Shown here in pieces: positions 6,499-35,839 of a stretch of 64,000 bases of DNA; the first letter of the stretch is position 1, and each line of letters opens with the position of its first letter. The notes beneath the pieces were generated by a model. That model searched no databases. It was not told where the DNA came from and was given only the letters and a program-made list of their open reading frames with translations. This DNA comes from an uncultured delta proteobacterium (GTDB lineage Bacteria; Myxococcota_A; Polyangia; Polyangiales; Polyangiaceae). Location: NCBI GenBank assembly GCA_963763745.1, contig CAVXQJ010000016.1, forward strand, positions 193,029-257,028, in the 5' to 3' direction. The translations under genes and the position numbers were made by a program.

Positions 6499-7349
6499 AG
6501 CCGTATCTCGATCTTCTTCGTCGTGTGATGGACGAAGGAACGGATCGTCCCGACCGCACCGGCACGGGAACGCGCAGCGTGTTCGGGCACCAGATGCGAT
6601 TCGATCTCGCCGAGTCGTTTCCGCTCGTGACGACGAAGAAGGTTCACCTCCGTTCGATCCTCCACGAGCTTTTGTGGTTTTTGCGCGGAGAAACCCGCGT
6701 CGAATCCTTGCAGAATGCAAAGGTTTCGATTTGGGACGAGTGGGCGACCGCGGAGCAAACGGCGCGCTTCGGTCGCAAAGCGGGCGACCTCGGCCCCGTG
6801 TACGGACACCAGTGGCGGAACTTCGGCGCAACGCCGCGCGCGGATGGAACGTGGGAGAGCGACGGCGTCGATCAGATCGAGCGCTTGCTCGTCGACCTCC
6901 GCGAGAAACCATTCTCGCGCCGTCACATCGTCACCGGATGGAACCCGAAGGAAGCGGACCAAGTCGCGCTCCCGCCGTGCCACACGCTCTTCCAATTTTA
7001 CGTCATGGAGAAGAACGGCACGTGCTCGCTGTCATGCCATCTCTATCAACGAAGCGGCGACGTCTTCCTCGGCGTGCCGTTCAACATCGCGAGCTACGCG
7101 CTCCTCACGATGATGATCGCGCAAGTGAGCGGCATGCGGCCCGGCGAATTCGTTCACTCGTTCGGCGACGCGCACCTCTACTCGAACCACTTCGACCAAG
7201 CGCGCCTCCAGCTCTCGCGCGAGCCGCGCAAATCGCCCGTGATGCGCATCAACCCCGACGTGAAGGATCTCTTCGCATTCAAATTCGAAGACTTCACGCT
7301 CGAAGGTTACGACGCGCATCCCGCGATCAGCGCGCCGGTCGCAGTGTGA
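6495..7349 (+). CDS. thyA: Thymidylate synthase
   Basis: [31 protein letters not shown]…[11 protein letters not shown]… is a classic ThyA sequence. Confidence 0.95.
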
Positions 7350-7354
7350 TAGTC

Positions 7355-7766
7355 GGGCTTTGGGCTTTGGGCCTTGGGCTTTGGGAAGAATGAGTCGCGA
7401 TCATTCGAAACTCAAAGTGTTTGCGATGGCGGACGAGTTGGTCGTCGCGGTGTACGCCGCGACTTCGGCGTTTCCGAAACACGAACAGTTCGGGTTGGTA
7501 TCGCAACTTCGTCGCGCCGCCGTTTCGATTCCGACAAACATCGTCGAAGGTTGCGCCCGCCAGACAACACGCGATTACGTGCATTTTCTGATCATCGCAC
7601 TCGGTAGCGCGGCGGAGCTTCGATATTTGCTCGACCTCAGTCATCGACTCGGCTTCATGCCGTCGCATGCGCCGCTGGATGCAGCTTGCGAAGCCTTATC
7701 GCGGTCGCTCAACCGGCTCATCGCCGCTCTTCAAACCCAAAGCCCAAAGCCCAAAGCCTGAAGCCC
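7355..7766. mobile_element. Cassette flanked by inverted heptamer repeats, carrying a four-helix-bundle gene, inserted between thyA and folA
   Basis: Left arm 7355-7385 is (GGGCTTT)4GGG. Right arm 7732-7766 is (AAAGCCC)n, its inverted complement. The cassette fills the whole thyA-folA intergenic space. Confidence 0.6.
7390..7761 (+). CDS. Four-helix-bundle protein (23S rRNA intervening-sequence protein family, Avd-like)
   Basis: MSRDHSKLKVFAMADELVVAVYAATSAFPKHEQFGLVSQLRRAAVSIPTNIVEG… matches the family signature. RBS GGGAAG lies upstream. The 3' end (QSPKPKA*) is encoded by the right repeat arm. Confidence 0.85.
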   Translation: MSRDHSKLKVFAMADELVVAVYAATSAFPKHEQFGLVSQLRRAAVSIPTNIVEGCARQTTRDYVHFLIIALGSAAELRYLLDLSHRLGFMPSHAPLDAACEALSRSLNRLIAALQTQSPKPKA

Positions 7767-8249
7767 ATGCTCCGTCCGCTCTGCCTCGTCTTCGCCATGT
7801 CCGACGCGCGCGTCATTGGCAAAGACAACGGTCTTCCGTGGAGCATTCCGGAGGATCTCAAGCACTTCAAGAACGTGACCGTCGGGCACGCGGTGATCTC
7901 CGGACGAAAGACGTATGACTCCGTCGGGAGGCCGCTCCCGAGTCGGCGCAACATCATCGTCACGCGCGACGCCACCTTGAAGCGCGAAGGCGCCGAGGTC
8001 GCGCCGACGCTCGAAGCGGCGCTCGCGCTCGCGTATCAGACGGATGAAGAGCCGCGCGTGCTCGGCGGCTCGGAGATCTTCGCGCTCGCTCTCCCGATCG
8101 CGACGAAGATGATCGTCACGTTCGTTCACCGCGACGTCGAAGGCGACGTGCGCTTTCCGGAGATCGATTGGTCCGCGTGGCGCGAAGTTTCGCGACGCAA
8201 GGCGACGACCGAGCCCGACGTCGAGTTCGTCGAGTACGCGCGCGAGTAA
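7767..8249 (+). CDS. folA: Dihydrofolate reductase
   Basis: MLRPLCLVFAMSDARVIGKDNGLPWSIPEDLKHFKNVTVGHAVISGRKTYDS… is a canonical DHFR N-terminus. ATG at 7767 immediately follows the cassette. Confidence 0.9.
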   Translation: MLRPLCLVFAMSDARVIGKDNGLPWSIPEDLKHFKNVTVGHAVISGRKTYDSVGRPLPSRRNIIVTRDATLKREGAEVAPTLEAALALAYQTDEEPRVLGGSEIFALALPIATKMIVTFVHRDVEGDVRFPEIDWSAWREVSRRKATTEPDVEFVEYARE

Positions 8250-25626: not shown

Positions 25627-28320
25627 TCAGCTCGCTTCGAGCGCGGCTTCGAGGAACGCGTCGATCTTTCCCGAGAGGACGCGCTTCACGTCGCCATCGG
25701 ACGCGCCCGTGCGGCGATCGCGGACGCCGCGCGAGTGGAGCTGATCGTACGTGCGGATCGGCGGCTCGTCGTCGCGCACGCGCTTCGTCGACATCGGCGC
25801 GCCGGGCGCTTTGACTTCGACGCGCGCGAGCCACGTGTCGCCGCGCTTGTCCTTGCCCTTCGGCGCCGCGATCAACCGGTGCCCGCCTTGTTCGCCTTTC
25901 AAATATCCGTACGCGTATGGGCCCTTCACGGTGATCGTCACGGTCTGCGCGTGCGCGGTCGTCTCGACGTCGTACTTTCGATCCTCGGCCCACGACGCGT
26001 ACATCTGCGCGAGCTCCTTCGCCCATGCGCTCGCGCCCTCTTTGCCGCCGACGGCGCGCACGACGAGCTCGGCGTCGCCGCGATCGGTGTCGTCGAAGTG
26101 GACGATCTCGCGTTCGGCGCGCGTGAGCGCGCGTTCGAGGCGCGCGTAGCGACCGACGAGATCATCGGCGGTGTCGCCGCGGGCGTTGCGCGGATCGACG
26201 AACGCGGCCTCGACGACCTCGCTCAGCAAATCGGTCCGCTGGCGCAAATCTTCGAGGCGCTTGATCTCCACGCTGAGCCGGTGGCGCTTGTACACGTCGC
26301 CGCCCTTGCCGAACGCTTCGTCCCAAAACGCCGGGCTCTTCGTCTTCTCTTCCATCGCCTCGAGCTCGCCGCGCATCGCAGCGACGTCGGCTTTTTCTTC
26401 GAGCTTCTCGATGCGCTCGTAGATGGACTTGAGCTCCGTCTTCACTTGCGCGAGCGACATGCGCACGACCTGTCCTTCGCCGTCGGTCGCGCGCGTGCGG
26501 CGCTCGAGGCTCTGGAGCTTGCGCGAGGTCTCGGTGTCTTCGAAGCTGAGTGACACGCCGTCGCCCTTTCGTGCCACACGGAGGAGCTGGTAGCGCTGCG
26601 CGGACGCGCCGAGCACCGCGCGCGCGAGCGGGAGAACGAGGAGCTCCTCGATCGCGCGCTTCAGCGGGCGCGCGCCGTACTTCGGATCGAAGCCGCGATC
26701 GAGGAGGAGATCGATGACGCCTTCGTCCACTTCGAGGAGGAGATCGCGCTCGAGCAATCCTTCGCGCCGATACACCTTGCCGAGCTCGCGCTGCGCGATC
26801 TTGCGCATGTCGCTCTTCTCGAGCGGCTCGAAGACGAGGATCTTGTCGATGCGGTTGAGAAACTCGGGGCGGTACGCGTGCTCGAGCGTGCGCCGCACGT
26901 CGCGGACGATGTTCGGCGAGCCGCCCTCCGCGCGACCGGAGAAACCAATCGACAATCCGAGCTCGCGCATGTTCGCGCCGACGTTCGACGTGAGGATGAT
27001 GAGCGTGTGGCGGAAGTCGACCGTGTCGCCGAACGCGTCGGTGAGGCGTCCGTCGTCGAAGACTTGGAGCATCAAGTCGGCGAGGTTCGGGTGGCCCTTC
27101 TCGAACTCGTCGAGCAAGACGACCGAGAATGGATTCTTGCGGACGTAGTCGGTGAGGAGCCCTGTCTTGTCCTGCTTCGGATCGCCGATGAGCTTCTCGA
27201 ACGAGTGAAAGTCTTTGTACTCGCTCACGTCGATGCGGAGCATCTTCGACGGGCTGCCGAAGAGAAACTCGGCGGTCGCCTTCGCGAGCTCCGTCTTGCC
27301 GACGCCCGTTGGACCGACGAAGAGCAAAACGCCCGCGGGCCAATCGGGATCGTTGAGGCCGGTCTTGTATAATGCAAGCAAATCGGCGACCGCGGAAACG
27401 GCTTCTTTTTGGCCCAAAACGCGCTCGGCGAGGAACTTGTGCATCTCCTCGTACGACATGCGCACAGTGGCCGAGAGCATGTGCATCGGGAGCGCGGTTT
27501 GTTTCGCGAAGACCTCCTCGACGAACGGCGCGTCGATGCGCGCCTTGTGGCCCGTGTCCGGCGCGCTCGCTTCTTGGACGACGCGCCGGAGGAGCTCGAC
27601 GCCTTTGCCGGGGAAGCTCTGCGTCGGAATGAATTTTTTCGCGAGCGAGAAGACGCGATCGATCGCTTGCTTTTCGAACGCGGGCGAGAGATCCGCCGCG
27701 ACGCGCACGAGCAGCTCGCGCGTCTCTTCTTCGGTGGGCTCGGGCACCGCGATGGCGACGAAATCGCGGACGAGGATCGGGTGCTCGCGCGCGAGCTTGT
27801 CCCAGCGGCCGGGTGTCACCTCGCCGAAGATGACGAGCTTGCCCTGTTCGATGCCGGGCCGCATGAGATCGTACACGCCGCGCGGGTTCGTGCTGTACGA
27901 GCCGGCGTACGGGAGGTTCCACACGTCGGGGATGTAGTGGAGGCGTTTTCGCGACGCGTGCGCGAGCATCGATCGGATGCGGCCTTCTTGTTGTCCCGTG
28001 AAGCGCGTGTCGGCGCAGAGACCGACCGTGGAGATTTCGTAAATCTTCGAGCCCGCGACTTCGGGGACGCGCCCGTCGCGCAGATACGAGAGGAGCTTTT
28101 GAACGACCGCGCTTTTTCCGACGCCGCTCGGGCCGACGAGCACAGCGCTTCGACCGCTCGCGAGCGTGCGCGCGAGCGCGTGCACTTCGGTTTGACGACC
28201 GAAGGTCTTCTCGCCGGTCGCATTGGGATCGGCGGAGAGCTCGCGCCCATCTTGCGCGACGACGTCGAAGTTGGCTTCAGTCACGGGAGAGCGTCGAAAG
28301 ATAGCATTTGCGCCGTGCAC
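25627..28320 (-). CDS. ClpA/ClpC-like double-AAA+ ATPase fused to an RF2-like domain-2/C-terminal module lacking the GGQ domain
   Basis: Walker A motifs GPSGVGKS and GPTGVGKT. D2 has LLDEFEKGH, RPEFLNRIDKILVFEPL and GARPLKRAIEE. An SIGF loop sits at the ClpA IGL position. The C-terminus aligns with the RF2 PCRF region and tail (YAYGYLKGEQGGHRLIAAPKGKDKRGDTW…; IRTYDQLHSRGVRDRRTG…IDAFLEAALEA). GTG start. Confidence 0.85.
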   Translation of the reverse strand: MHGANAIFRRSPVTEANFDVVAQDGRELSADPNATGEKTFGRQTEVHALARTLASGRSAVLVGPSGVGKSAVVQKLLSYLRDGRVPEVAGSKIYEISTVGLCADTRFTGQQEGRIRSMLAHASRKRLHYIPDVWNLPYAGSYSTNPRGVYDLMRPGIEQGKLVIFGEVTPGRWDKLAREHPILVRDFVAIAVPEPTEEETRELLVRVAADLSPAFEKQAIDRVFSLAKKFIPTQSFPGKGVELLRRVVQEASAPDTGHKARIDAPFVEEVFAKQTALPMHMLSATVRMSYEEMHKFLAERVLGQKEAVSAVADLLALYKTGLNDPDWPAGVLLFVGPTGVGKTELAKATAEFLFGSPSKMLRIDVSEYKDFHSFEKLIGDPKQDKTGLLTDYVRKNPFSVVLLDEFEKGHPNLADLMLQVFDDGRLTDAFGDTVDFRHTLIILTSNVGANMRELGLSIGFSGRAEGGSPNIVRDVRRTLEHAYRPEFLNRIDKILVFEPLEKSDMRKIAQRELGKVYRREGLLERDLLLEVDEGVIDLLLDRGFDPKYGARPLKRAIEELLVLPLARAVLGASAQRYQLLRVARKGDGVSLSFEDTETSRKLQSLERRTRATDGEGQVVRMSLAQVKTELKSIYERIEKLEEKADVAAMRGELEAMEEKTKSPAFWDEAFGKGGDVYKRHRLSVEIKRLEDLRQRTDLLSEVVEAAFVDPRNARGDTADDLVGRYARLERALTRAEREIVHFDDTDRGDAELVVRAVGGKEGASAWAKELAQMYASWAEDRKYDVETTAHAQTVTITVKGPYAYGYLKGEQGGHRLIAAPKGKDKRGDTWLARVEVKAPGAPMSTKRVRDDEPPIRTYDQLHSRGVRDRRTGASDGDVKRVLSGKIDAFLEAALEAS

Positions 28321-28382
28321 GACGCGCTGGGCCCAACGCCGGGATCGTCGAAGATCGTGTAGGATCGGCGGAAGGGTGGGCG

Positions 28383-29067
28383 ATGGAACGAGCGTCGACG
28401 TTGATGATGGCCGGGCTCCTCACGACGGCCAGCGGGTGCTCGAAGAGTGGCGAGCCCGGTGATCTTTGTGGCCGACTGGCAAAAGCGGGTGCTGCGACGA
28501 GCTGCAGCACGCCGCCCAATCAAGACAAAAGCCTGCAGTTTGCGACGTTCACCGAGTCGGGCAACACGCATCACAAGGGCGTCATTGTTCGTTATCGCGA
28601 CGAACCAGACTATCGCAAGGCCAAGCAGTTCGAGGACGAGCACAAGGCGGCAGCGGCGCTGATCGAGCGCGTCTACGTCAAAGACGATGCTCACGTGGTC
28701 GTGACACTCGAAGGCAGCGGCGGACAAGATCGCCAAGACGCTCGACATGACGGTGCTCGTCGGTTCCCCAACGACCAACGTCGCACCCGCGGAGCTCGGC
28801 AAGTATCTATTCGCGAGCAAGGGGTGCGCGGTGTGTCACTCGGTTGATGGCACCAAGTCAACCGGACCAACACTCAAGGGCGTATTCGGGAAACCCGTCT
28901 TGCTCGCCTCGGGCGAGAGTGTCGTGGCAGACGAAGCGTACGTTCGCGAGTCGATCCTGCAGCCAAACGCGAAGGTCGTCCTCGGTTTTCCGCCGATACA
29001 GCCCCCATATGAACTTCCGGAAGTCGAGATCGCCGGCCTCGTCGCATACGTCGAGTCACTTCAATGA
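28383..29067 (+). pseudogene. Lipoprotein with a C-terminal class-I cytochrome c domain, apparent frameshift near 28715-28725
   Basis: MERASTLMMAGLLTTASGCS (lipobox) ORF in frame 0. The CAVCH haem-binding ORF (28747..29067) is in frame +1 and has no signal peptide of its own. Confidence 0.55.
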
Positions 29068-29420
29068 TCGGCAGCCGCCGCGAGCGCGTTCAAATCCGCC
29101 ATCGGCACGTCCGAGCCACTCAAGACGCCTTGCGTGCGCGGGCTCGAGCCGAGCGCTTGGAGCATTTGGATTTGCATCTTCTCGGCTTGTTGACTCAGCG
29201 CTGCGCGCCGCTGCTCGTTGATGTCGCGCTCGCCCCCGTCTCGCGCGAGGTTCGCGATGGGCGGATCCGCAACCGATGCGGATGCCACCGGCGTCGCGCT
29301 CACGCTCGCGATCGCGCTGGGCGCTGGCGCGGTCGTCGTTGTCGTTGTCGTCGTCGTCGCATCGTCCTGACGGCGACACCCGAGGAGCACGAGCGCGAAG
29401 AGCCAACGCCGGCATTGCAT
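29061..29420 (-). CDS. Small lipoprotein, hypothetical
   Basis: MQCRRWLFALVLLGCRRQ (lipobox), a poly-Thr linker and a protein-like tail. Confidence 0.45.
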   Translation of the reverse strand: MQCRRWLFALVLLGCRRQDDATTTTTTTTTAPAPSAIASVSATPVASASVADPPIANLARDGGERDINEQRRAALSQQAEKMQIQMLQALGSSPRTQGVLSGSDVPMADLNALAAAADH

Positions 29421-29448
29421 CATGCCCGCGATGTTACGAGACTCTGGC

Positions 29449-29656
29449 GATGAGCAAACAGGTTGCTGTGGTCGTTTGCGTTGGGCTCGGCATCCCGATT
29501 GCGCTCGGTGGTGGAACGACGTTCGCGATCGGCCTCGCCGCGAATTTCGGAGCCATGGTTGCGGTCGGCGCGAGCATCCTCGGCATCGGCGGCTTTCTCA
29601 TCGGAGCTGGCGTTCTCTTGAACGAGCAAGCCAAGGAGCGTTACGCGAGTGACTGA
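29449..29656 (+). CDS. Small hydrophobic membrane protein
   Basis: MSKQVAVVVCVGLGIPIALGGGTTFAIGLAANFGAMVAVGASILGIGGFLIGAGVLL (about 68 aa). Confidence 0.35.
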
Positions 29657-29676
29657 GATGGCGTAGCCTGGGGATC

Positions 29677-30240
29677 GTGTTCATCCCACACGTCGAAGGA
29701 CACAACGCGGCGCGCGAAGCACACGAGTCGCACTCGATGCTGCAGGGCTTCGTCGAGATGGGGCCAATCGAAAAGCTGCAGGTCATCGTGATCTTCGTGG
29801 CGTGCCTCTATCAAATCATCTGGTTCGTGCGGCAGACGAACATGCGCGTGAATGTCGTGGCGTTCTGCGAGCAGATTCGAAAGCTCATCGACGCGGGCAA
29901 TCCCGAGCGCGCGTTGAAATTGTGCGCGGCGGCGCCGCACGCGCCTGTCGCGCTTCTTGCGAAGCTCGGTTTGGAGGCACGCGCGCGCGGAGAGAATGCG
30001 CGCGACGCCATGCGCGCCGCGTACCCACGCTTCCTCAGCGCGAGCCGCGGAGGCTTGCTCATCGCAGTCGTCCTCGGAGCGATCGCGTTCGCCGAGGGCG
30101 TGGTGCTCCTCGCCGAGGAAGGCGTCGCGAACGTCGCGTCGATCCCTCTGCTCTTCGTGGTGCTGTTGGGCGCGCTGAACGCGTCGCGATATGTGGCGTG
30201 GCCACGCGAGCTCACGCTGGTCTGCGACAAGCTCGGCTGA
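29677..30240 (+). CDS. Membrane protein, hypothetical
   Basis: Protein-like 187-aa ORF with 2-3 TM helices. Confidence 0.45.
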   Translation: MFIPHVEGHNAAREAHESHSMLQGFVEMGPIEKLQVIVIFVACLYQIIWFVRQTNMRVNVVAFCEQIRKLIDAGNPERALKLCAAAPHAPVALLAKLGLEARARGENARDAMRAAYPRFLSASRGGLLIAVVLGAIAFAEGVVLLAEEGVANVASIPLLFVVLLGALNASRYVAWPRELTLVCDKLG

Positions 30241-30251
30241 ACGTCATCGAC

Positions 30252-31238
30252 TCAGCGCTTCGCGGCGTGCGCGAGAGCCCGCGCGAGCTCGTGTCGCTTC
30301 GTCGTTCCGAGCTTGCGATGTGCGCGCGCGATGAGGACGCGCACGGTCGTGTCCGATAGCCCGAGCTCGTAGGCGATGTGCTTCGTCGTGTGACCGAGTA
30401 CGACGAAGGAGACGACTTGTCGCTCTCGCGGCGTGAGCGCTTCGGGTCCGTGCCCGCCGGCCTCGTTGCGTTGAGCGACGACGTAGCGTTTTCCGCTGCG
30501 CTCGAAGTGATCGACGAGAGTCCATCGCGCGGAGACGAGGCCGCGCCACATCGCGATGGCCTCGTCGGGCGCGTTGCGTCGCATGCGTCCGCGAGCGCGT
30601 TCAATCGCGCACGTCGCTTCTTTGAGGAGATCGCGCGCGGCGCGCAGTTGCGCTTCTCCGACCGCGTGCTCCACGCGACCGTTCGGCGCGAGGATGGCCT
30701 CGCCGTCCGAAGGAGTGGTTCGAAGTCTTCGACGAAGTCGATATCCGGCGGCGATGTGCGCGGAGACGCGCGAGAGCATCTCCTGGCGATCGCGCGTGAG
30801 TCGCATTTTCGTCGGCGTTGCGACGCCGATGAACGCGCCGATGCCGGCGGGGTCGACTCCGTTGATGCCCAGCATGTCGCGAACGCCGACCGGGTTGAAC
30901 AGCGCGTGGAACGACGTCTGCGCATGGTTGGGCGTCGTGCTCGCCATCGCACACGGAATCACGCGAAACGACGTTTCGACGTACGACGCGTTCACGCCTT
31001 CCTCGATGACTTGCTTGGCGAGCGCCGCGAACCCGCGCGCGCGCTTCGTTTCGACGACGGTGCGTGCGTGCATCGTGTTCGACGCGTCGACTTCGTAGAG
31101 CAATCCGACGGTGCCGACTCCAACACCCACCGCCGACTCAGTCGCGTCTGCGATGCGCTGGATCCAGCTCGCGTCGTTCCCGTCGAAATCGTAAACGCGC
31201 TCGACGACGGAGAGAATGTCCGACTTGCCGCGCCCCAT
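30252..31238 (-). CDS. LuxR-family transcriptional regulator
   Basis: C-terminal HTH (LTPRERQVVSFVVLGHTTKHIAYELGLSDTTVRVLIARAHRKLG). ATG at 31236-31238. Confidence 0.8.
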   Translation of the reverse strand: MGRGKSDILSVVERVYDFDGNDASWIQRIADATESAVGVGVGTVGLLYEVDASNTMHARTVVETKRARGFAALAKQVIEEGVNASYVETSFRVIPCAMASTTPNHAQTSFHALFNPVGVRDMLGINGVDPAGIGAFIGVATPTKMRLTRDRQEMLSRVSAHIAAGYRLRRRLRTTPSDGEAILAPNGRVEHAVGEAQLRAARDLLKEATCAIERARGRMRRNAPDEAIAMWRGLVSARWTLVDHFERSGKRYVVAQRNEAGGHGPEALTPRERQVVSFVVLGHTTKHIAYELGLSDTTVRVLIARAHRKLGTTKRHELARALAHAAKR

Positions 31239-31338
31239 GTCCCATCGTCGCACACGTTCGCGAGGGCGTGCGTTTACATGAACACGCGTAAACGATTTCG
31301 AACGCCCGGCGCACGCGCAGCGCCAGCATGATGCCCGC

Positions 31339-32838
31339 ATGCGTACGCTCGTATTCTTCTTCTTGGCATGTGGCGCCGCATCTGCTGCTTGCGTCGGTGA
31401 TGGCGGGCAAACGACGACCGATGGAGGGCTCGACGCGGCCTCCGATGTCTCACTGAACGACGTTGTCGCGATCGACGCCTCCGAAGCGTGCGCGACGACG
31501 TGCGGGGGTCAGTGCGTCGACACGACGAGCGATCCGCAGAACTGTGGCGGATGCGGTGTCACATGCAAGAAGGCGTCGACGAGCTTTGCGTGTGTGCAAA
31601 GCAAATGCGGAAACGTCGTCACGAGCGTCGAGACGAGCCAGAACGCGTCGTGCGCGCTTCTTCTCGAAGGCACCGTGTGGTGTTGGGGTGACGAGAACGT
31701 CGGAGAGACCGGCGTCGTCGGCACCTACACGCCGGCGCCGACGAAGGTCGCCGGCTTGTCGAACGTCACGGCGATCGCCGGTGCGGCGAGCTCGTGGTGC
31801 GCGCTCGAAGGCGACGGGAGCGTGTGGTGCTGGGGATCGAACAGCGTCGGCCAGCTCGCACAAACCATCGGCGCCGACCCCGATTGCAACGGCGTGTGCG
31901 ACCCGACGCCGAGGCAGGTGACGCTCTCGAGCAAAGCAACGCAAGTCGTCGGTGGCACGGACACGTTCTGCGCCGTCGTCGCGGGCAACGTCTACTGCTG
32001 GGGGGCGGCGTCGACGGGCATCCTCGGAACGACGAGCGCCACGCCGAGCGCCACGCCCGTGAAGATCCCCGTGTTCACCGGCGATGTGCTCGCTCTTGGC
32101 TTTTCATTCAGCGATGGCGGTTTCCCGGGCGTGCACGAACATGCCTGCGCGCTGCGATCGGACACGTCGATTTGGTGTTGGGGCGAGAACAACGGCGGTC
32201 AACTCGGGCACCCGCAACAAGCCGGAACGCCCGCCGACACCGGTTGCTACACCAACGCGTGGTGCAACCCGACGCCGCAACCCGTCCAAGACGGTGCGTC
32301 GAAGACGATCACGGGGTTCAAGGTCGTGCTCGCGGGCAACCAATTCTCCGCCGCGATCAAGAGCGACGGCACGTTGTGGACGTGGGGCAGCAACGGCGAA
32401 GGCACGCTCGGCAACGGAACGCACGACACCAACGTGTTCGGCTCGCACAGCGTGCCCGCGCAGATCCTCACGAACGCCGCGTATGCGTCCGTCAGCGAGC
32501 TCGACGGGTTCGTCGTCGACAACGGCGGCACGACGAGCGTGTGGGGCGCGAACTTGAACGGCTCGCTCGGTCTCGGCACGCTCACGGTCGGCACGACGTG
32601 TACGAACTTCGATTGCAAACAAGCACCGGCGACGAACGCCTCGCTCGCCGGCGCCAAGCACGTCTCCCTCCGTTACGAGAGCGGCCTCGCGCTCATGCCG
32701 AACGGCGACGTGCTCGGTTGGGGCATCAACGACTACGCGCAGCTTGGCCACGCACCCAATACGAACGGCGACGTCACGTGCGGAGCATCGAGCCACTGCC
32801 TGCTCGCGCCGACGGCGCTCGCGTCGACGCCGTGGTGA
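31339..32838 (+). CDS. RCC1-repeat (beta-propeller) lipoprotein with a Cys-rich N-terminal module
   Basis: MRTLVFFFLACGAASA (lipobox), a Cys-rich CGGQCVDTTSDPQNCGGCGVTC module, then repeated WCWG…GQLG RCC1 blades. Confidence 0.85.
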   Translation: MRTLVFFFLACGAASAACVGDGGQTTTDGGLDAASDVSLNDVVAIDASEACATTCGGQCVDTTSDPQNCGGCGVTCKKASTSFACVQSKCGNVVTSVETSQNASCALLLEGTVWCWGDENVGETGVVGTYTPAPTKVAGLSNVTAIAGAASSWCALEGDGSVWCWGSNSVGQLAQTIGADPDCNGVCDPTPRQVTLSSKATQVVGGTDTFCAVVAGNVYCWGAASTGILGTTSATPSATPVKIPVFTGDVLALGFSFSDGGFPGVHEHACALRSDTSIWCWGENNGGQLGHPQQAGTPADTGCYTNAWCNPTPQPVQDGASKTITGFKVVLAGNQFSAAIKSDGTLWTWGSNGEGTLGNGTHDTNVFGSHSVPAQILTNAAYASVSELDGFVVDNGGTTSVWGANLNGSLGLGTLTVGTTCTNFDCKQAPATNASLAGAKHVSLRYESGLALMPNGDVLGWGINDYAQLGHAPNTNGDVTCGASSHCLLAPTALASTPW

Positions 32839-33639
32839 TCACGCCGCGGCTTTGAGCTCCGAGCTGCGAATCTCCGTGTAGACGGGCGGCGCATCGAGGT
32901 CGAGGCGCGCGCGAACTTCTTCGACCGGCAGCGCGAGCATCGATTCCCAATCTTGCTCGGGGAGCCACTGCGCTTTGCGACCGCGACGGAAGCCGTCGAC
33001 GATCGTCTTTCGCGCGGCCGCACCGCCGAGCTCCGCGGTGATCGTCTTGCTGAGACCGATGGCGATGATCAAACCGATTGCGGGGTTCTACGTTTGCGCG
33101 AACGTGAACGCGAGCAGCGCCGTCTCGCCGAGCACGTCGCCGGAATATCCGACGGCCGCGTGCCAGAGATCGTGCGTGTCGCGCATGCGCGCGTGGACCC
33201 AATCGAGCGGGGCGGGGAGGAGCTCCGCTTCCTGGCGGAATCCTTTTTTCTGCGCGTCGCGAATGCCTTCAGCGGAGATGTTCTCGCGCTCGACGAACGC
33301 GAGATACGCGCGGCCGAGCGATCCCTCGGGCAAGCGCGCGAGCGCTTTGCGATCGGCGAGCACGGAGACGATGTCGGCGCGGGCAGCCAGCATCTTTTTT
33401 CCGGATGCGCTCTTTTGAAGCCGTTCACCGATGCGCTCGAGCGTGTTGCCGCTCAGCGATTCGATGATGGTGAAGACCTGCGGCAAATCGTCGGGGTCGG
33501 CGGCAAGGATACGTGCGGCGCGAAGGGCCCGTTTGGGCTCGAATTGAATCGTGCGAACAGCACGATTCGATGACTCTTGCTGGGAAGCGCGGCGCCCGCC
33601 GCGCGTTCCCATTTGTACGTGGCTCATGCCCAAGAACAA
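32839..33639 (-). pseudogene. Coq4-family protein (HDxxH-x11-E zinc motif) interrupted by an in-frame TAG at 33088-33090
   Basis: ORFs 33088..33639 (…RMRDTHDLWHAAVGYSGDVLGET…) and 32839..33072 are in the same frame and contiguous except for one TAG (…FAQT*NPAIGLIIAIG…). Confidence 0.75.
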
Positions 33640-33702
33640 TGGACGCTACCTACAGGATTGTCAATAGCTGCTGACAGGTTTGTTCGTAGGCGGCGATGTG
33701 CG

Positions 33703-34341
33703 ATGCTGGCGTCCATGGCCGCGCGTGGGAAAACGAAGCCGCGCCGGCGGCTCGACGCCGAAACGGCGCGGAAGTTGATTTTGGACGCCACGGAAGCGCG
33801 CCTCGTTCGCGTCGGGCCCGCCGGCATTCGGCTGCAAGAGGTCGCGGCGGACGCGGGCGTGTCGCACCCGACCGTGCTGCATCATTTCGGGAGCCGCGAG
33901 CTCCTCGTGAAGGCAGCGTGCTCGCGCGCGTTTCAGGAGATCAACGCGACGCTCGTCGAGTCGATCATGTCGTCGGCGGGCGACGAAGTGCGCCTCGAGG
34001 CGATGCTCGAGAACGTCGCCACGGCGCTCGCGAAAGCGGGGCACGCGCGCGTCGTCATGTGGCTCGCGCTCGAAGGGTTTCGAATCGACGACGCAGAGAA
34101 CGGTCTCTCGAACGTCGTCGACGCGACGCACGCGCTCCGCCTCGCGCGTCACACGCGCGGAAAAAAACCAACGCGCGAAGACACGGCCCACACGGTCGTC
34201 CTCGCGACGCTCGCGCTCGTCGGCGGCGCGGTCCTCGGCACGACGCTGCTCGACAACGCGGGCCTCCCCTCGAGCGACCGCGCGATGAGCGAGTTCCGCA
34301 AATGGCTGTTTCGGGTGCTCATCGAGCACCTCGATGGGTGA
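33703..34341 (+). CDS. TetR-family transcriptional regulator
   Basis: N-terminal HTH (ARKLILDATEARLVRVGPAGIRLQEVAADAGVSHPTVLHHFGSRELL). Confidence 0.8.
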   Translation: MLASMAARGKTKPRRRLDAETARKLILDATEARLVRVGPAGIRLQEVAADAGVSHPTVLHHFGSRELLVKAACSRAFQEINATLVESIMSSAGDEVRLEAMLENVATALAKAGHARVVMWLALEGFRIDDAENGLSNVVDATHALRLARHTRGKKPTREDTAHTVVLATLALVGGAVLGTTLLDNAGLPSSDRAMSEFRKWLFRVLIEHLDG

Positions 34342-34347
34342 GGAGAA

Positions 34348-34445
34348 GGCTGCGGGCTGCGGGCTGCGGGCTACGGGCTTCGGGAAGAATGAAATCTCGA
34401 TCCTTCTTGCTCTTCCCGCGGCCCGCAGCCCGTAGCCCGCAGCCC
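34348..34445. repeat. Gene-less copy of the inverted-heptamer cassette (98-bp hairpin) between two convergent stop codons
   Basis: (GGGCTGC)3GGGCTACGGGCTTCGGG, then AAGAATGAAATCTCGATCCTTC, then the inverted arm CCCGCAGCCCGTAGCCCGCAGCCC. The loop keeps the GGGAAGAATGA…TCGCGATC start region seen at 7380-7400. Confidence 0.6.
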
Positions 34446-35839
34446 TATCTCAATTTGTCTATCGCCTCCTGCACCGTGCGCTCGAAGCCCGGTTTCTTCT
34501 GGGCGTCGGGCAGTGAGCGGTAGAGCGCGAGCTGCGCTTCGAGGGCGGCGCGGGCTTCGGGGCGCTTGCCCATCGCCATCAAGATGTCCGCTTTGAGGCG
34601 GTACATGAGGCCTTTGCGCGCGCCGTAGCCTTTGGCTATCGCGCGATCGATCGCGGCGAGCGCCTCTGCGTTTTTTCCGAGCTTGAAGTACACGTGCGCG
34701 AGGCGGTGCGCGGGGTTGTAGTCGTTCGGTAGCGCCTTCTCTTGCGCCTCGAGGAACTGCGCGGCCTCCGCGCCACGACCGAGGAACTCGAGCGTCTCCA
34801 TGCGCGCGCCGTCGAACGTCGTCGCGATCTCCGGGTCGGGACGCGCGGCGACGGCCTTCATGATGACGGCGAGTCGCGAGCGCGCGGCGTCTTGCGCGCC
34901 CTTGTGATCGCCGAGCATCTCGAGCGCTTCCCACACGACGTGAAATCCGTCGGCGCGATCGTCGGGCGAGAGGAGCGCGTTCGTGTCGCTGCACGCTTGC
35001 GCGACGCGCGGCGCGATCGCCGAGCGAATCTTCTTCACGCGCGCGGCGTCGTGGCTCTGCTCGGTGCAGTCGAGCGCGATCGAAGAAAAATCGATCATCA
35101 CGGACGACTCGCCGAGCGTGCCGAGATATTTCTCCGCCGTGTCGAGGCAGCGCGCGTCGTGCTTTTGCGCGCTGATCAATCCGAGCGCGGCTTCCGGCAA
35201 GTGATCCCAATTCGCGGGCGCCGCGGCGAGCGCGCGTGCGAATTGTTTCTCCGCTTCGGCGTAGTCGCTCTTCAGCACCGCGCGGTGACCCGCGAGGAGC
35301 AGCGCGCGCGGATTGTTCGCATCGAGCGAGCCCGCGTGTGCCTGCTCGATGGAGCGCGTCGCGTCCGTCAGGAACGCGCGCATCTGTTGAACGCTGCCCG
35401 CGCCTTCCCATCTTCCGTGAACGGATCCATCGCTCGGATCGACGACGAAGAACGTGGGCAGCACGTGCGTCGGAAACGCGGCGGACGCGGCGGCGTTCTG
35501 CTCTTTCTCGATGTCGAACGAGAAACGCACGAACGACTGCGGGAGCGACGCGTCCTCGAGCACGAACGTCCGCATCGCCTTGCACGTGTGACACCACACC
35601 GCCGACGCATCGACGAAGAGCGGCGCGTTCGCTTTCTTCGCGGTCGCGACGGCGCGCGCGTAGTCGTCCTCAATCCAATCGCGCGGAATCGGGATGGGCG
35701 CAGAGGCGGACGCAGACGCCGACGGAGTCAGAGACGGAGTCGGGGACGGGGACTGGGACGGAGTCGGAGTCGGGGACGGAGTCGGCGTTTGCGTGCCGCC
35801 GCACGCGACGAGAAAGAGAAAGACGAGCCGGCGCGACAT
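34445..35839 (-). CDS. Thioredoxin-like (WCxxC) TPR-repeat lipoprotein
   Basis: MSRRLVFLFLVACGG (lipobox), a Pro/Thr/Ser linker, a WCHTCK thioredoxin-fold motif and C-terminal TPR-like repeats. Confidence 0.8.
   Translation of the reverse strand: MSRRLVFLFLVACGGTQTPTPSPTPTPSQSPSPTPSLTPSASASASAPIPIPRDWIEDDYARAVATAKKANAPLFVDASAVWCHTCKAMRTFVLEDASLPQSFVRFSFDIEKEQNAAASAAFPTHVLPTFFVVDPSDGSVHGRWEGAGSVQQMRAFLTDATRSIEQAHAGSLDANNPRALLLAGHRAVLKSDYAEAEKQFARALAAAPANWDHLPEAALGLISAQKHDARCLDTAEKYLGTLGESSVMIDFSSIALDCTEQSHDAARVKKIRSAIAPRVAQACSDTNALLSPDDRADGFHVVWEALEMLGDHKGAQDAARSRLAVIMKAVAARPDPEIATTFDGARMETLEFLGRGAEAAQFLEAQEKALPNDYNPAHRLAHVYFKLGKNAEALAAIDRAIAKGYGARKGLMYRLKADILMAMGKRPEARAALEAQLALYRSLPDAQKKPGFERTVQEAIDKLR

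What the first reader, a model, noticed from the sequence alone, without database searches (positions are those of the whole stretch)
34348..34445. Gene-less 98-bp copy of the same heptamer-hairpin element exactly between two convergent stop codons
The sequence is (GGGCTGC)3 GGGCTAC GGGCTTC GGG, then AAGAATGAAATCTCGATCCTTCTTGCTCTTCC, then the inverted arm CGCGGCCCGCAGCCCGTAGCCCGCAGCCC.

The loop retains GGGAAGAATGA..TCGATC, which is the same RBS/ATG/first-codons string as the 4HB gene at 7380-7400. This looks like a deletion scar of the cassette, or a miniature non-autonomous derivative.

The element abuts the TetR stop at 34341, and its right arm ends on the stop of the Trx/TPR gene at 34445. 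It could therefore also act as a bidirectional terminator hairpin.
Basis: seen in the sequence. Interest (0 to 1): 0.6.

Follow-up and report, generated by a model that had tools for sequence, protein, structure and literature searches.

The report
Gene-less remnant of a heptamer-hairpin cassette
A 98-bp perfect-looking hairpin made of 7-base repeats, wedged between two converging genes, is a gene-less leftover of a small inserted cassette that normally carries a four-helix-bundle (S23p/Avd-like) gene; this kind of element is already known from ribosomal RNA intervening sequences and from bacterial heptamer repeats, and what it does is still unknown.

Summary
Window 34347-34445 holds five GGGCTNC-type heptamers, then GGGAAGA-ATG and a short inner segment, then the inverted array. 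As RNA it folds at about -80 kcal/mol on either strand (z about -8). It fills the gap between the TetR stop (34339-34341) and the Trx/TPR stop (34445-34447).

It has the same architecture as the 4HB (PF05635/TIGR02436) cassette at 7355-7766. Its inner segment matches that gene's SD/ATG/first codons in 21 of 22 aligned positions, with one gap (shuffle p about 2e-4).

The cassette is a real insertion. Relatives have thyA and folA only 5-10 nt apart, where the window has 417 nt. Of 29 non-redundant 4HB genes from other contigs, 28 fold with a long closing stem between their flanks. The arm units differ between elements but match within each element.

Gene-less hairpins of the same heptamer class are common elsewhere. 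Four orthologous Trx/TPR genes lack the hairpin.

I read it as an internally deleted, ORF-less copy. It is most likely a passive 3'-UTR double-stranded RNA stem (RNase III substrate or transcript barrier), not a canonical terminator. It is a new member of a known kind and of moderate interest. Whether it moved as a miniature or decayed in place is unresolved.

The parts
34347..34381 (+). Left arm: five tandem heptamers, AGGCTGC GGGCTGC GGGCTGC GGGCTAC GGGCTTC. G-rich, and a potential G-quadruplex motif on the + strand.
34382..34388 (+). Innermost unit GGGAAGA. This is the Shine-Dalgarno-like string of the parent 4HB gene, identical to 7383-7389. It pairs with TCTTCCC at 34411-34417.
34389..34406 (+). 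Remnant of the 4HB start, ATGAAATCTCGATCCTTC, against ATGAGTCGCGATCATTC in the intact gene. It differs by one inserted base and three substitutions. It is a decayed copy of the M-S-R-D-H-S codons and is no longer a 4HB reading frame.
34407..34410 (+). Rest of the inner segment (TTGC). Together with 34411-34415 it reads TTGCTCTTC, which resembles CCGCTCTTC at the 3' end of the intact 4HB gene (7724-7732). On its own this match is not significant.
   Evidence: (p = 0.17)
34411..34445 (+). Right arm: TCTTCCC GCGGCCC GCAGCCC GTAGCCC GCAGCCC, the inverted complement of the left arm. On the - strand it is G-rich.
33577..34341 (+). TetR-family regulator gene. Its stop (34339-34341) lies 5 nt (34342-34346) before the left arm. 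The true start codon is uncertain.
34445..35839 (-). Thioredoxin-like + TPR protein gene. Its stop codon (34445-34447 on the + strand) shares one base with the right arm.
7355..7389 (+). Left arm of the intact sister cassette: GGGCTTT GGGCTTT GGGCCTT GGGCTTT GGGAAGA.
7390..7761 (+). Four-helix-bundle protein gene, 123 aa. Matches PF05635 (23S_rRNA_IVP) and TIGR02436. Closest solved structure is XCC0516 (PDB 2GSC).
7728..7766 (+). Right arm of the intact cassette: TCTTC AAACCC AAAGCCC AAAGCCC AAAGCCT GAAGCCC. It overlaps the last codons of the 4HB gene and ends one base before the folA ATG.
7350..7766 (+). The whole 417-nt insertion between the thyA stop (7347-7349) and the folA start (7767). 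Relatives have only 5-10 nt in this position.

Best explanation
The 98-99 bp element is an ORF-less, internally deleted copy of a small inserted cassette. The intact cassette consists of a four-helix-bundle gene (S23p / 23S-rRNA-IVS protein family, Avd-like) enclosed by two inverted arrays of 7-nt repeats. About 320-340 nt of coding sequence have been lost. What remains is both arms, the SD-like GGGAAGA, the ATG, and a frameshifted remnant of the first five codons.

Shown here:
- It shares architecture with the intact cassette 27 kb away, and its inner segment is significantly similar to that gene's start.
- The intact cassette is an insertion.
- The cassette family is widespread.
- The arm units co-vary between the two arms of each element.

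Inferred:
- Read-through transcripts from TetR (+) or from Trx/TPR (-) would fold the element into a near-continuous stem of about 35 bp or more.
- By analogy with the ORF-bearing and ORF-less intervening sequences of 23S rRNA, RNase III would cut such a stem. The stem would also block 3' exonucleases and separate the two convergent transcripts.
- I therefore take it to be a passive 3'-UTR processing or stability structure left by a selfish element, not a gene and not a classical intrinsic terminator.

I lean towards decay from an ORF-bearing copy, in place or shortly before arrival, because the loop still carries recognisable coding remnants.

The confidence given applies to the identity (an ORF-less derivative of the 4HB cassette). 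For the RNase III / transcript-barrier function alone I would put it at about 0.35.
For: Anatomy and stability.

Loop homology to the 4HB start:
- 21 of 22 aligned positions with one gap, shuffle p = 2e-4.
- My own binomial estimate for the part after ATGA alone (10 of 13 matches) is about 1e-3.
- The matched codons R-D-H are invariant or nearly invariant in the protein family, so their presence in a non-coding loop points to descent from coding sequence.

Shared innermost unit: GGGAAGA directly before the ATG in both elements.

The cassette is an insertion: thyA and folA are 5 or 10 nt apart in relatives with 91% and 86% ThyA identity, against 417 nt in the window.

The family is general:
- 4HB genes in Alphaproteobacteria and Polyangiaceae MAGs and two other contig sets carry flanking arrays.
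- By my reading of the listed flanks, 29 of 31 viral-contig 4HB loci carry heptamer-like arrays upstream and their complement downstream. The strict array detector reports only a subset of these.
- A cassette's own downstream flank is the best complement of its upstream flank in 15 of 29 cases and among the top three in 26 of 29. Own-pair mean score is 18.8 against 9.7 for non-own pairs.
- 28 of 29 fold with a closing stem of at least 20 pairs.

ORF-less hairpins of the same GGCT heptamer class: 21 copies in 19 loci, none with a 4HB gene inside the fetched locus.

Lineage-specific presence: four orthologous Trx/TPR genes (74-78% identity) end at nearly the same codon without any hairpin.

RNase III precedent: the Coxiella IVS has an S23p ORF, an AGAAGA SD, tandem heptamers and a 28-bp stem cut by RNase III in vitro, with the in vivo ends mapped inside the stem (PMC4990558).
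Against: - The 3'-side similarity (GCTCTTC) is not significant alone (p = 0.17). It can be explained by the need to pair with GAAGA.
- Most of the 5' alignment score comes from the 8-nt AAGAATGA.
- No intermediate (a full cassette at this site) was found, and no second copy of this loop was found.
- The source genome could not be retrieved, so the copy number in the genome is unknown.
- The relatives used for the empty-site comparison do not share the downstream gene (TetR), so there is no exact empty site for this element.
- No transcript data exist. RNase III cleavage and any effect on the neighbouring genes are inference only.
Confidence: 0.65

Rival explanations
1. It is a non-autonomous miniature (MITE- or REPIN-like). 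The ORF-less hairpin itself is the mobile unit. It arrived at the Trx/TPR 3' end as a 98-bp element, mobilised in trans by whatever moves the 4HB cassettes.
For: - ORF-less hairpins of the same heptamer class are frequent and dispersed: 21 copies in 19 loci, with three copies on one 37-kb contig.
- None of those loci carries a 4HB gene.
- In Xanthomonas, 70-75 inverted heptamer pairs are reported (PMC4692102). The one 4HB gene checked there (XCC0516) has such an array overlapping its start codon.
- The element sits at the edge of a roughly 6-kb lineage-specific block.
Against: - Only one mini is present in the 64-kb window.
- No second copy with this loop was found in 185,579 species representatives, in JGI metagenomes or in IMG/VR.
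- Loops of the other ORF-less hairpins show no obvious 4HB remnant on inspection, so this one looks like a fresh deletion, not a member of an amplified mini family.
- No target-site duplication flanks either window element.
- No transposase-like gene is known for the family.
Confidence: 0.2
2. It is an independent simple-sequence-repeat hairpin. Polymerase slippage generated two inverted heptamer arrays, and the element has no ancestry in a 4HB cassette. The similarity of the loop is chance plus a shared preference for a purine-rich innermost unit.
For: - G-rich heptamer SSRs, single or as inverted pairs, are abundant in some bacteria without reference to any gene (PMC4692102).
- Heptamer arrays followed by GGGAAGAATGA turn up in unrelated phyla, but they were selected by that very pattern.
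- The 3'-side match is not significant.
Against: - The inner-segment match to the 4HB start is significant (p = 2e-4).
- It extends past the ATG into the conserved R-D-H codons.
- The two elements share GGGAAGA + ATG in the same register with the arrays.
- Other 4HB relatives have different SD regions, so this string is specific to this lineage and is not a general property of the hairpins.
Confidence: 0.12
3. It is a selected bidirectional transcription terminator. The hairpin is kept because it stops both convergent transcripts.
For: - It sits exactly between two convergent stop codons.
- The fold is very stable on both strands.
- Rehm et al. find such repeats mostly close behind the upstream ORF.
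Against: - No U-tract follows the stem on either strand.
- The stem of about 35 bp is far longer than that of an intrinsic terminator.
- The consensus scan does not flag it, though that scan accepts only loops of 3-8 nt.
- Orthologous Trx/TPR genes do without it.
- The sister cassette lies inside the thyA-folA gene pair, immediately before the folA ATG, where termination would cut off folA.
Confidence: 0.12
4. It is a G-quadruplex element. The GGGN4 arrays on both strands act through G4 (DNA or RNA) formation, not through the hairpin.
For: - Each strand carries five G3 tracts with 4-nt spacers in its 5' arm.
- GGGAATC-type heptamer oligonucleotides form G4 in vitro (PMC4692102).
Against: - Many 4HB cassette arms have units without a G3 tract, such as AGGCTGT, AGTCTGG and AGACTGA. 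The Coxiella unit is GACAGAT. G4 potential is therefore not a family property.
- The competing hairpin is about -80 kcal/mol.
Confidence: 0.06

Closest known systems
ORF-bearing intervening sequences (IVS) of 23S rRNA genes that encode S23p / PF05635 proteins (Leptospira, Coxiella burnetii, Brucella, Haemophilus; PMC4990558)
   Same: - The sister cassette at 7355-7766 encodes the same protein family.
- The gene is enclosed by terminal inverted repeats that form a long stem.
- A purine-rich SD (AGAAGA in Coxiella, GGGAAGA here) lies in the stem region.
- Tandem heptamers lie upstream of the ORF, and in Coxiella their copy number varies between strains.
- The ORF is dispensable or decaying in Coxiella. 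The focal element is the end point of such decay.
   Different: - It is not in an rRNA gene. There is no rRNA in the window, and the elements lie between protein-coding genes.
- Here the arms themselves are heptamer arrays with a G-CT core.
- RNase III cleavage is not shown here.
ORF-less IVSs of 23S rRNA (about 100 nt, helices 25 and 45; Salmonella and others). The RNase III part is cited in PMC4990558; the sizes are from my own knowledge.
   Same: A short extra stem-loop of about 100 nt without a gene, excised by RNase III. This is the behaviour I infer for the focal hairpin.
   Different: - The location is an mRNA 3' UTR, not rRNA.
- The arms are heptamer-repeat arrays.
- No processing data exist.
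G-rich heptameric simple sequence repeats, GGGAATC in Xanthomonas and GGGGA(C/T)T in Nostoc, including 70-75 convergent (inverted) pairs per Xanthomonas genome (Rehm et al. 2015, PMC4692102). The cyanobacterial STRR heptamers are named from my own knowledge.
   Same: - Tandem GGGNNNN units, typically about four.
- Intergenic and close behind the upstream ORF.
- Often present as an inverted pair able to form a stem-loop.
- Function unknown.
- One such array overlaps the start codon of XCC0516, the structurally solved 4HB homologue.
   Different: - The unit here is GGGCTGC.
- That paper does not connect the repeats with the 4HB/S23p gene family. Here the loop remnant makes the connection explicit for one element.
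REP / REPIN and MITE-type intergenic palindromes (own knowledge)
   Same: Short intergenic hairpin-forming repeats at gene ends. They are transcribed, and can stabilise upstream mRNA or be processed.
   Different: - No RAYT or transposase partner is known or was seen.
- No target-site duplication is present.
- The arms are internally periodic (7 nt), unlike unique-sequence palindromes.
Avd, the accessory protein of diversity-generating retroelements (PDB 4DWL; PMC10053308)
   Same: The cassette's protein is a distant homologue: DivGenRetAVD model E = 1.2e-4, below its curated cut-off. The literature links PF05635 and Avd.
   Different: - No reverse transcriptase or TR/VR pair was looked for or seen near either element.
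- The focal element encodes nothing.

Membership tests
4HB (S23p / PF05635) heptamer-hairpin cassette | Encodes a PF05635 / TIGR02436 four-helix-bundle protein | tested here: not met
   The focal element has no such ORF. Only a frameshifted remnant of codons 1-6 remains, and tblastn finds only the gene at 7390-7758 in the window. The sister element meets the feature. The focal element is therefore filed as a derivative, not as a full member.
4HB (S23p / PF05635) heptamer-hairpin cassette | Inverted arrays of 7-nt units flank the insert, with the same unit in both arms | tested here: met
   for the focal element. Searches show this is the family rule (own-arm complementarity 18.8 against 9.7 for non-own pairs).
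4HB (S23p / PF05635) heptamer-hairpin cassette | SD and ATG directly follow the innermost unit of the left arm, and the sequence is homologous to a 4HB gene start | tested here: met
   GGGAAGA + ATG is identical to 7383-7392. The match is 21 of 22 aligned positions with one gap, p = 2e-4.
4HB (S23p / PF05635) heptamer-hairpin cassette | Presence or absence polymorphism at orthologous sites (an insertion) | tested here: inconclusive
   The hairpin is absent after four orthologous Trx/TPR genes, but the downstream gene differs there, so there is no exact empty site. A clean empty site was obtained only for the sister cassette.
23S rRNA intervening sequence (IVS) | Located inside a 23S rRNA gene (helix 25 or 45) | tested here: not met
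   No rRNA or any other Rfam family reaches its threshold in the window. The element lies between protein-coding genes.
23S rRNA intervening sequence (IVS) | Stem excised by RNase III | not testable with these tools
   Only the predicted stem of about 35 bp is available. The precedent is in PMC4990558.
G-rich heptameric SSR, inverted pair (Rehm et al. 2015) | At least 2 tandem heptamers carrying a G3 tract | tested here: met
   Five or more G3-bearing units per strand.
G-rich heptameric SSR, inverted pair (Rehm et al. 2015) | Two arrays in convergent orientation on opposite strands, close together, intergenic, and within about 50 bp of a stop codon | tested here: met
   22-37 nt separate the arms. 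The left arm begins 5 nt after the TetR stop codon, and the right arm shares its last base with the Trx/TPR stop codon.
G-rich heptameric SSR, inverted pair (Rehm et al. 2015) | Unit GGGAATC / GGGANTN (Xanthomonas) or GGGGA(C/T)T (Nostoc) | tested here: not met
   The unit is GGGCTGC. It is the same descriptive class with a different unit.
Rho-independent (intrinsic) terminator | Short GC-rich stem (about 5-15 bp), small loop, then a U-tract | tested here: not met
   The stem is about 35 bp and no U-run follows on either strand. The scan does not list it, though it only allows loops of 3-8 nt.
MITE | Terminal inverted repeats plus a target-site duplication | tested here: not met
   Inverted arms are present, but there is no direct repeat at the borders (GGAGA|AGGCTGC ... 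GCAGCCC|TATCTC). There is also none at the thyA|folA insertion.
REP / REPIN | Associated RAYT (Y1 transposase) gene and a family of near-identical copies in the genome | not tested
   The source genome is not retrievable. The window's ORFs were not all screened for PF01797.

The most novel reading that the evidence does not exclude
Heptamer-repeat hairpins in bacteria, including the hundreds of 'G-quadruplex SSR' pairs in Xanthomonas and the cyanobacterial heptamer repeats, would be the non-autonomous progeny of one unrecognised class of mobile element. Its only gene would be an Avd-like four-helix-bundle protein, and it would spread through its RNA hairpin, for example by recruiting a reverse transcriptase as Avd does in DGRs, with the 4HB pentamer reading the 7-nt G-CT periodicity. 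The element at 34347-34445 would then be a caught intermediate between the autonomous and the miniature form.
Probability: 0.12. Interest if true: 0.75.

Novelty: new member of a known kind. Interest (0 to 1): 0.38.

Why it matters
The origin and spread of the S23p-encoding intervening sequences, and the function of the very abundant PF05635 four-helix-bundle proteins, have been open questions since the 1990s. Bacterial heptamer repeats have been described separately as quadruplex-forming SSRs of unknown role.

This window offers two things side by side:
- a clean insertion of an ORF-bearing cassette into a 5-10 nt gene spacer;
- an ORF-less copy that still carries the gene's first codons.

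That ties the two literatures together for one lineage. It also gives concrete substrates (an intact cassette, a mini, and empty sites) for testing RNase III processing, 4HB binding to the hairpin, and mobility.

For annotation, it explains why such hairpins sit flush against stop and start codons, and why assemblies break at these genes. By itself the 98-bp element is probably a neutral remnant.

Tried and rejected
Retrieving the source genome to count copies:
- Exact-protein look-ups failed for the 4HB and Trx/TPR proteins and for P0121.
- The cluster look-up gave no accession or name.
- A 607-kb contig exists, but it cannot be fetched.

Collection scans with GGGCNNNGGGCNNNGGGAAGAATGA:
- The genome scan gave 13 loci. 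None was the source or a close relative: 8 were heptamer arrays in Nostoc, Aminicenantes, Clostridia, Pirellulales and Peribacteria, and 5 looked like chance hits.
- The metagenome scan gave 7 loci, all cyanobacterial-type arrays or chance hits.
- These hits were selected by the pattern itself, so they say nothing about conservation of GGGAAGAATGA.
- In hindsight, an arm-only pattern on the genome collection would have been a better use of that single scan.

Other searches:
- The loop-specific pattern in viral contigs gave 0 hits.
- Rfam gave nothing at gathering thresholds. At relaxed thresholds the mini hairpin drew only weak sub-threshold hits, mostly eukaryotic miRNA-precursor models, which fits a generic long hairpin. 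The cassette gave nothing.
- The terminator and promoter scan was not informative for this stem.

Rejected or weakened ideas:
- The 3'-side homology of the loop (GCTCTTC) was rejected as independent evidence (p = 0.17).
- G-quadruplex as the family's defining property was rejected, because many cassette arms lack G3 tracts.
- A small ORF starts at the remnant ATG (34389) and runs antisense into Trx/TPR for about 45 codons (read from the sequence). It was not considered a gene.
- The literature searches found no paper linking heptamer arrays with 4HB genes apart from the Coxiella IVS description.
Full report
**1. What is in the sequence**

Reading 34200-34600 gives the following layout:
- TetR stop TGA at 34339-34341, then five bases (GGAGA, 34342-34346).
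- Five tandem heptamers, AGGCTGC GGGCTGC GGGCTGC GGGCTAC GGGCTTC (34347-34381).
- GGGAAGA (34382-34388) and ATG (34389-34391).
- A short inner segment up to 34410.
- The inverted array TCTTCCC GCGGCCC GCAGCCC GTAGCCC GCAGCCC (34411-34445).
- The last C of that array is the first base, on the + strand, of the CTA (= TAG) stop of the minus-strand gene 34445-35839.

Tandem Repeats Finder reports 5.3 and 4.4 copies of a 7-nt unit. The arms are 35 nt at 89% complementarity, or 24 nt at 96% in a register shifted by one unit. In that shifted register the variant unit GGGCTAC faces GTAGCCC.

As RNA the element folds at -82.3 kcal/mol on the + strand and -78.6 on the - strand. The z-scores are -8.1 and -8.9, and none of 200 shuffles does as well. 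The inner segment also pairs with itself, so the structure is an almost continuous hairpin with a small terminal loop.

The pattern GGGCNNNGGGCNNNGGGC (up to one mismatch) matches 15 times in the window against 0.55 expected. Thirteen of these lie in this element or in the 4HB cassette at 7355-7766.

One is a TetR_N protein and the other a Thioredoxin_7 + TPR protein. The alternative overlapping ORFs have no family match.

The only correction is that the first unit is AGGCTGC.

**2. Relation to the 4HB locus**

The gene at 7390-7761 encodes a 123-aa protein of PF05635 (23S_rRNA_IVP, E = 3.5e-31) and TIGR02436. The closest solved structure is XCC0516 of Xanthomonas campestris, PDB 2GSC.

It is preceded by GGGCTTT GGGCTTT GGGCCTT GGGCTTT GGGAAGA + ATG (7355-7392). 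It is followed by, and partly encoded in, TCTTC AAACCC AAAGCCC AAAGCCC AAAGCCT GAAGCCC (7728-7766).

The whole cassette folds with these arms as the closing stem, at -199 kcal/mol and z = -7.0.

The focal element has the same plan: an array, then GGGAAGA, then ATG. Its inner segment aligns to the first bases of the 4HB inner region:
- focal: AAGAATGAAATCTCGATCCTTC
- 4HB: AAGAATG-AGTCGCGATCATTC

That is 21 of 22 aligned positions with one gap, and 4 of 20,000 shuffles of the loop score as well.

The part after the ATG corresponds to the codons for S-R-D-H-S. R3 and D4 are invariant and H5 nearly invariant in an alignment of 22 family members. Finding a frameshifted, mutated copy of conserved codons inside a non-coding loop is what an internal deletion of a coding cassette predicts.

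The 3' match (GCTCTTC just before the right arm in both elements) is not significant by itself (p = 0.17). It is also the complement of the SD-like GAAGA, so I do not count it as independent evidence.

The heptamer units differ (GGGCTGC against GGGCTTT). The mini is therefore not a recent copy of the cassette at 7355, but descends from another member of the same lineage.

**3. The cassette is real, inserted and widespread**

The insertion:
- thyA (Thymidylat_synt) ends at 7349 and folA (DHFR_1) starts at 7767.
- In the closest retrievable relatives the two genes are separated by 5 nt (TGA-GCACG-ATG, ThyA 91% identical) or 10 nt (86% identical).
- The 417 nt between them in the window are therefore an insertion that fits exactly between a stop and a start codon. 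No target-site duplication is visible.

4HB genes from other contigs:
- Those from an Alphaproteobacteria MAG, a Polyangiaceae MAG and two further contig sets all carry GGGCTNN or AGGCTAC arrays upstream and the complementary arrays downstream.
- By my reading of the listed flanks, 29 of 31 4HB loci from IMG/VR contigs carry heptamer-like arrays, with units such as AGGCTGT, AGGCTGG, AGTCTGT, AGGCTTG and GGGCTTT. The strict array detector reports only a subset of these.
- Among 29 non-redundant cassettes, each one's own downstream flank is the best reverse-complement partner of its upstream flank in 15 cases and among the top three in 26. The mean score is 18.8 for own pairs against 9.7 for non-own pairs.
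- Where both arrays are clearly periodic, the consensus unit is the same or differs at one position in most. So the unit varies between elements and co-varies within an element, around a conserved G-CT core.
- 28 of 29 fold with a long-range closing stem of at least 20 pairs. In 15 of 29 at least half of the SD window is buried in that stem. This analysis had no shuffle control.

**4. ORF-less copies elsewhere**

A pattern for three GGCT-type units, a 20-50 nt spacer and three complementary units found 21 hairpins in 19 IMG/VR loci. By my rough estimate far fewer than one would be expected by chance for 24 specified bases. They fold at -36 to -87 kcal/mol with short loops.

None of these loci contains a 4HB homologue. 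One 37-kb contig has three copies.

Their loops show no obvious 4HB remnant on inspection. That makes the window's element look like a fresh derivative and not a member of an old amplified mini family.

**5. Is the focal element an insertion at its site?**

Four orthologues of the Trx/TPR gene (74-78% identity) end at practically the same codon (...VQEQIDKLK*) and have no heptamer array downstream.

In those relatives the next gene is a ClpB-like AAA/PCRF protein, or another gene. In the window that gene lies at 25627-28320. About 6 kb of lineage-specific genes (LuxR-type, RCC1-repeat, a hypothetical, TetR) lie in between.

The hairpin sits exactly at the Trx-side junction of this block. It is thus lineage-specific, but no exact empty site with TetR as neighbour was available.

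The source genome could not be fetched. Neither the genome scan nor the metagenome scan found a relative of either window element. Copy number in the genome is therefore unknown.

**6. How it most likely works**

Shown: the element is a stable, nearly perfect inverted repeat located in the 3' regions of both convergent genes.

Inferred: if either gene's transcript runs into it, the RNA forms a duplex of about 35 bp.

The best-documented fate of such stems in this element family is cleavage by RNase III. The Coxiella IVS carries an S23p ORF, an AGAAGA SD, tandem heptamers (GACAGAT) whose number varies between strains, and a 28-bp terminal stem. RNase III cuts that stem in vitro, with the in vivo ends mapped inside it. 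The same holds for the Leptospira and Salmonella IVSs (PMC4990558).

I therefore expect the mini to act as a processing or stability structure and as a barrier between convergent transcripts, without being needed. The orthologues lack it.

A canonical terminator is unlikely for three reasons:
- There is no U-tract on either side.
- The stem is several times longer than that of a terminator.
- The sister cassette sits directly in front of the folA start codon, where termination would cut off folA.

In the intact cassette the SD-like GGGAAGA is part of the closing stem. This suggests that translation of the 4HB protein depends on opening or cutting the stem. In the mini this feature is only a fossil.

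G-quadruplex formation by the GGGN4 arrays is possible on both strands (compare PMC4692102). It cannot be the family's common denominator, because many arms lack G3 tracts.

**7. Comparison with what is known**

The element works like, and descends from the same kind of cassette as, the S23p-encoding IVSs of 23S rRNA. It is not an IVS, because it is not in rRNA.

It fits the descriptive class of G-rich heptameric SSRs occurring as inverted pairs close behind ORFs, described for Xanthomonas and Nostoc with unknown function (PMC4692102). The unit differs.

That paper's own table lists a GGGAATC array overlapping the start codon of XCC0516, the solved 4HB homologue. It makes no link to the gene family. 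I found no paper that does, other than the Coxiella description.

It is not a MITE in the strict sense, since there is no target-site duplication. REP/REPIN membership could not be tested.

The protein family is distantly related to DGR Avd. That similarity is the only hint towards a nucleic-acid-directed role.

**8. Verdict**

The terminator idea is not.

The element is a new member of a known kind, most likely a neutral remnant with incidental RNA-structure effects.

Its value is as a link between IVS/S23p cassettes and bacterial heptamer-repeat hairpins. Together with the clean thyA|folA insertion, it also provides material for testing how these cassettes move and what the 4HB protein binds.

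Interest is 0.38.

Noticed in passing
window 7350-7766 (compare L081 3358-3364; L082 3352-3363): The ORF-bearing 4HB cassette is a clean 417-nt insertion between the thyA stop and the folA start. Relatives have only 5 or 10 nt in that position. No target-site duplication is visible. The right arm ends one base before the folA ATG, so folA has no conventional SD of its own.
   Followed up: yes
window 28320-34445: About 6 kb (LuxR-type regulator, RCC1-repeat protein, a hypothetical, TetR) lies between the Trx/TPR gene and the ClpB-like AAA/PCRF gene. In relatives L020/L021 those two genes are adjacent and overlapping. The hairpin marks the Trx-side junction of this lineage-specific block.
   Followed up: partly
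PMC4692102, supplementary file 2 (Xcc repeat #15, genome 622956-622983): A GGGAATC x4 array of the Xanthomonas 'quadruplex SSR' class overlaps the annotated start codon of XCC0516. XCC0516 (PDB 2GSC) is the closest solved homologue of the window's 4HB protein. The paper does not comment on this.
   Followed up: partly
one search hit table (P0001-P0120): Most contigs carrying close 4HB homologues are shorter than 1.5 kb. This suggests that metagenome assemblies tend to break at these cassettes, because of repeat arms or multiple copies.
   Followed up: no
L068 4121-4199 and 11320-11401; L072 874-946 (all on contig IMGVR_UViG_3300011438_000025): Three ORF-less hairpins with the same AGGCTGA/AGGCTAA unit lie on one 37-kb contig. 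No 4HB gene is present in the fetched parts. This is a dispersed gene-less family within one genome.
   Followed up: partly
L037 about 1370-1500: One 4HB cassette has a very long upstream array (17 or more units of AGGCTCC/AGGCTTC, about 130 nt) against a short, degenerate downstream array. The arms can expand very unequally.
   Followed up: no
window 35721-35785: A 12/24-nt tandem repeat (GACGGAGTCGGA-like, 5.4 copies) lies inside the N-terminal part of the Trx/TPR gene on the minus strand. It is probably a low-complexity linker after the signal region.
   Followed up: no
window 34389-34523: The remnant ATG opens a reading frame of about 45 codons (MKSRSFLLFPRPAARSPQPYLNL...). It runs through the right arm and antisense into the Trx/TPR gene. 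It was not searched on its own; the longer overlapping ORF 33696-34523 in the same frame has no Pfam match. It is very probably not a gene.
   Followed up: partly
L001, L007, L012, L013, L026, L027, L030 (Nostoc and other cyanobacterial contigs): Cyanobacterial GGGCATT/GGGAATT arrays face AGTCCCC-type arrays. These hairpins rely on G-U pairs, so they would be stable only as RNA of one strand.
   Followed up: no
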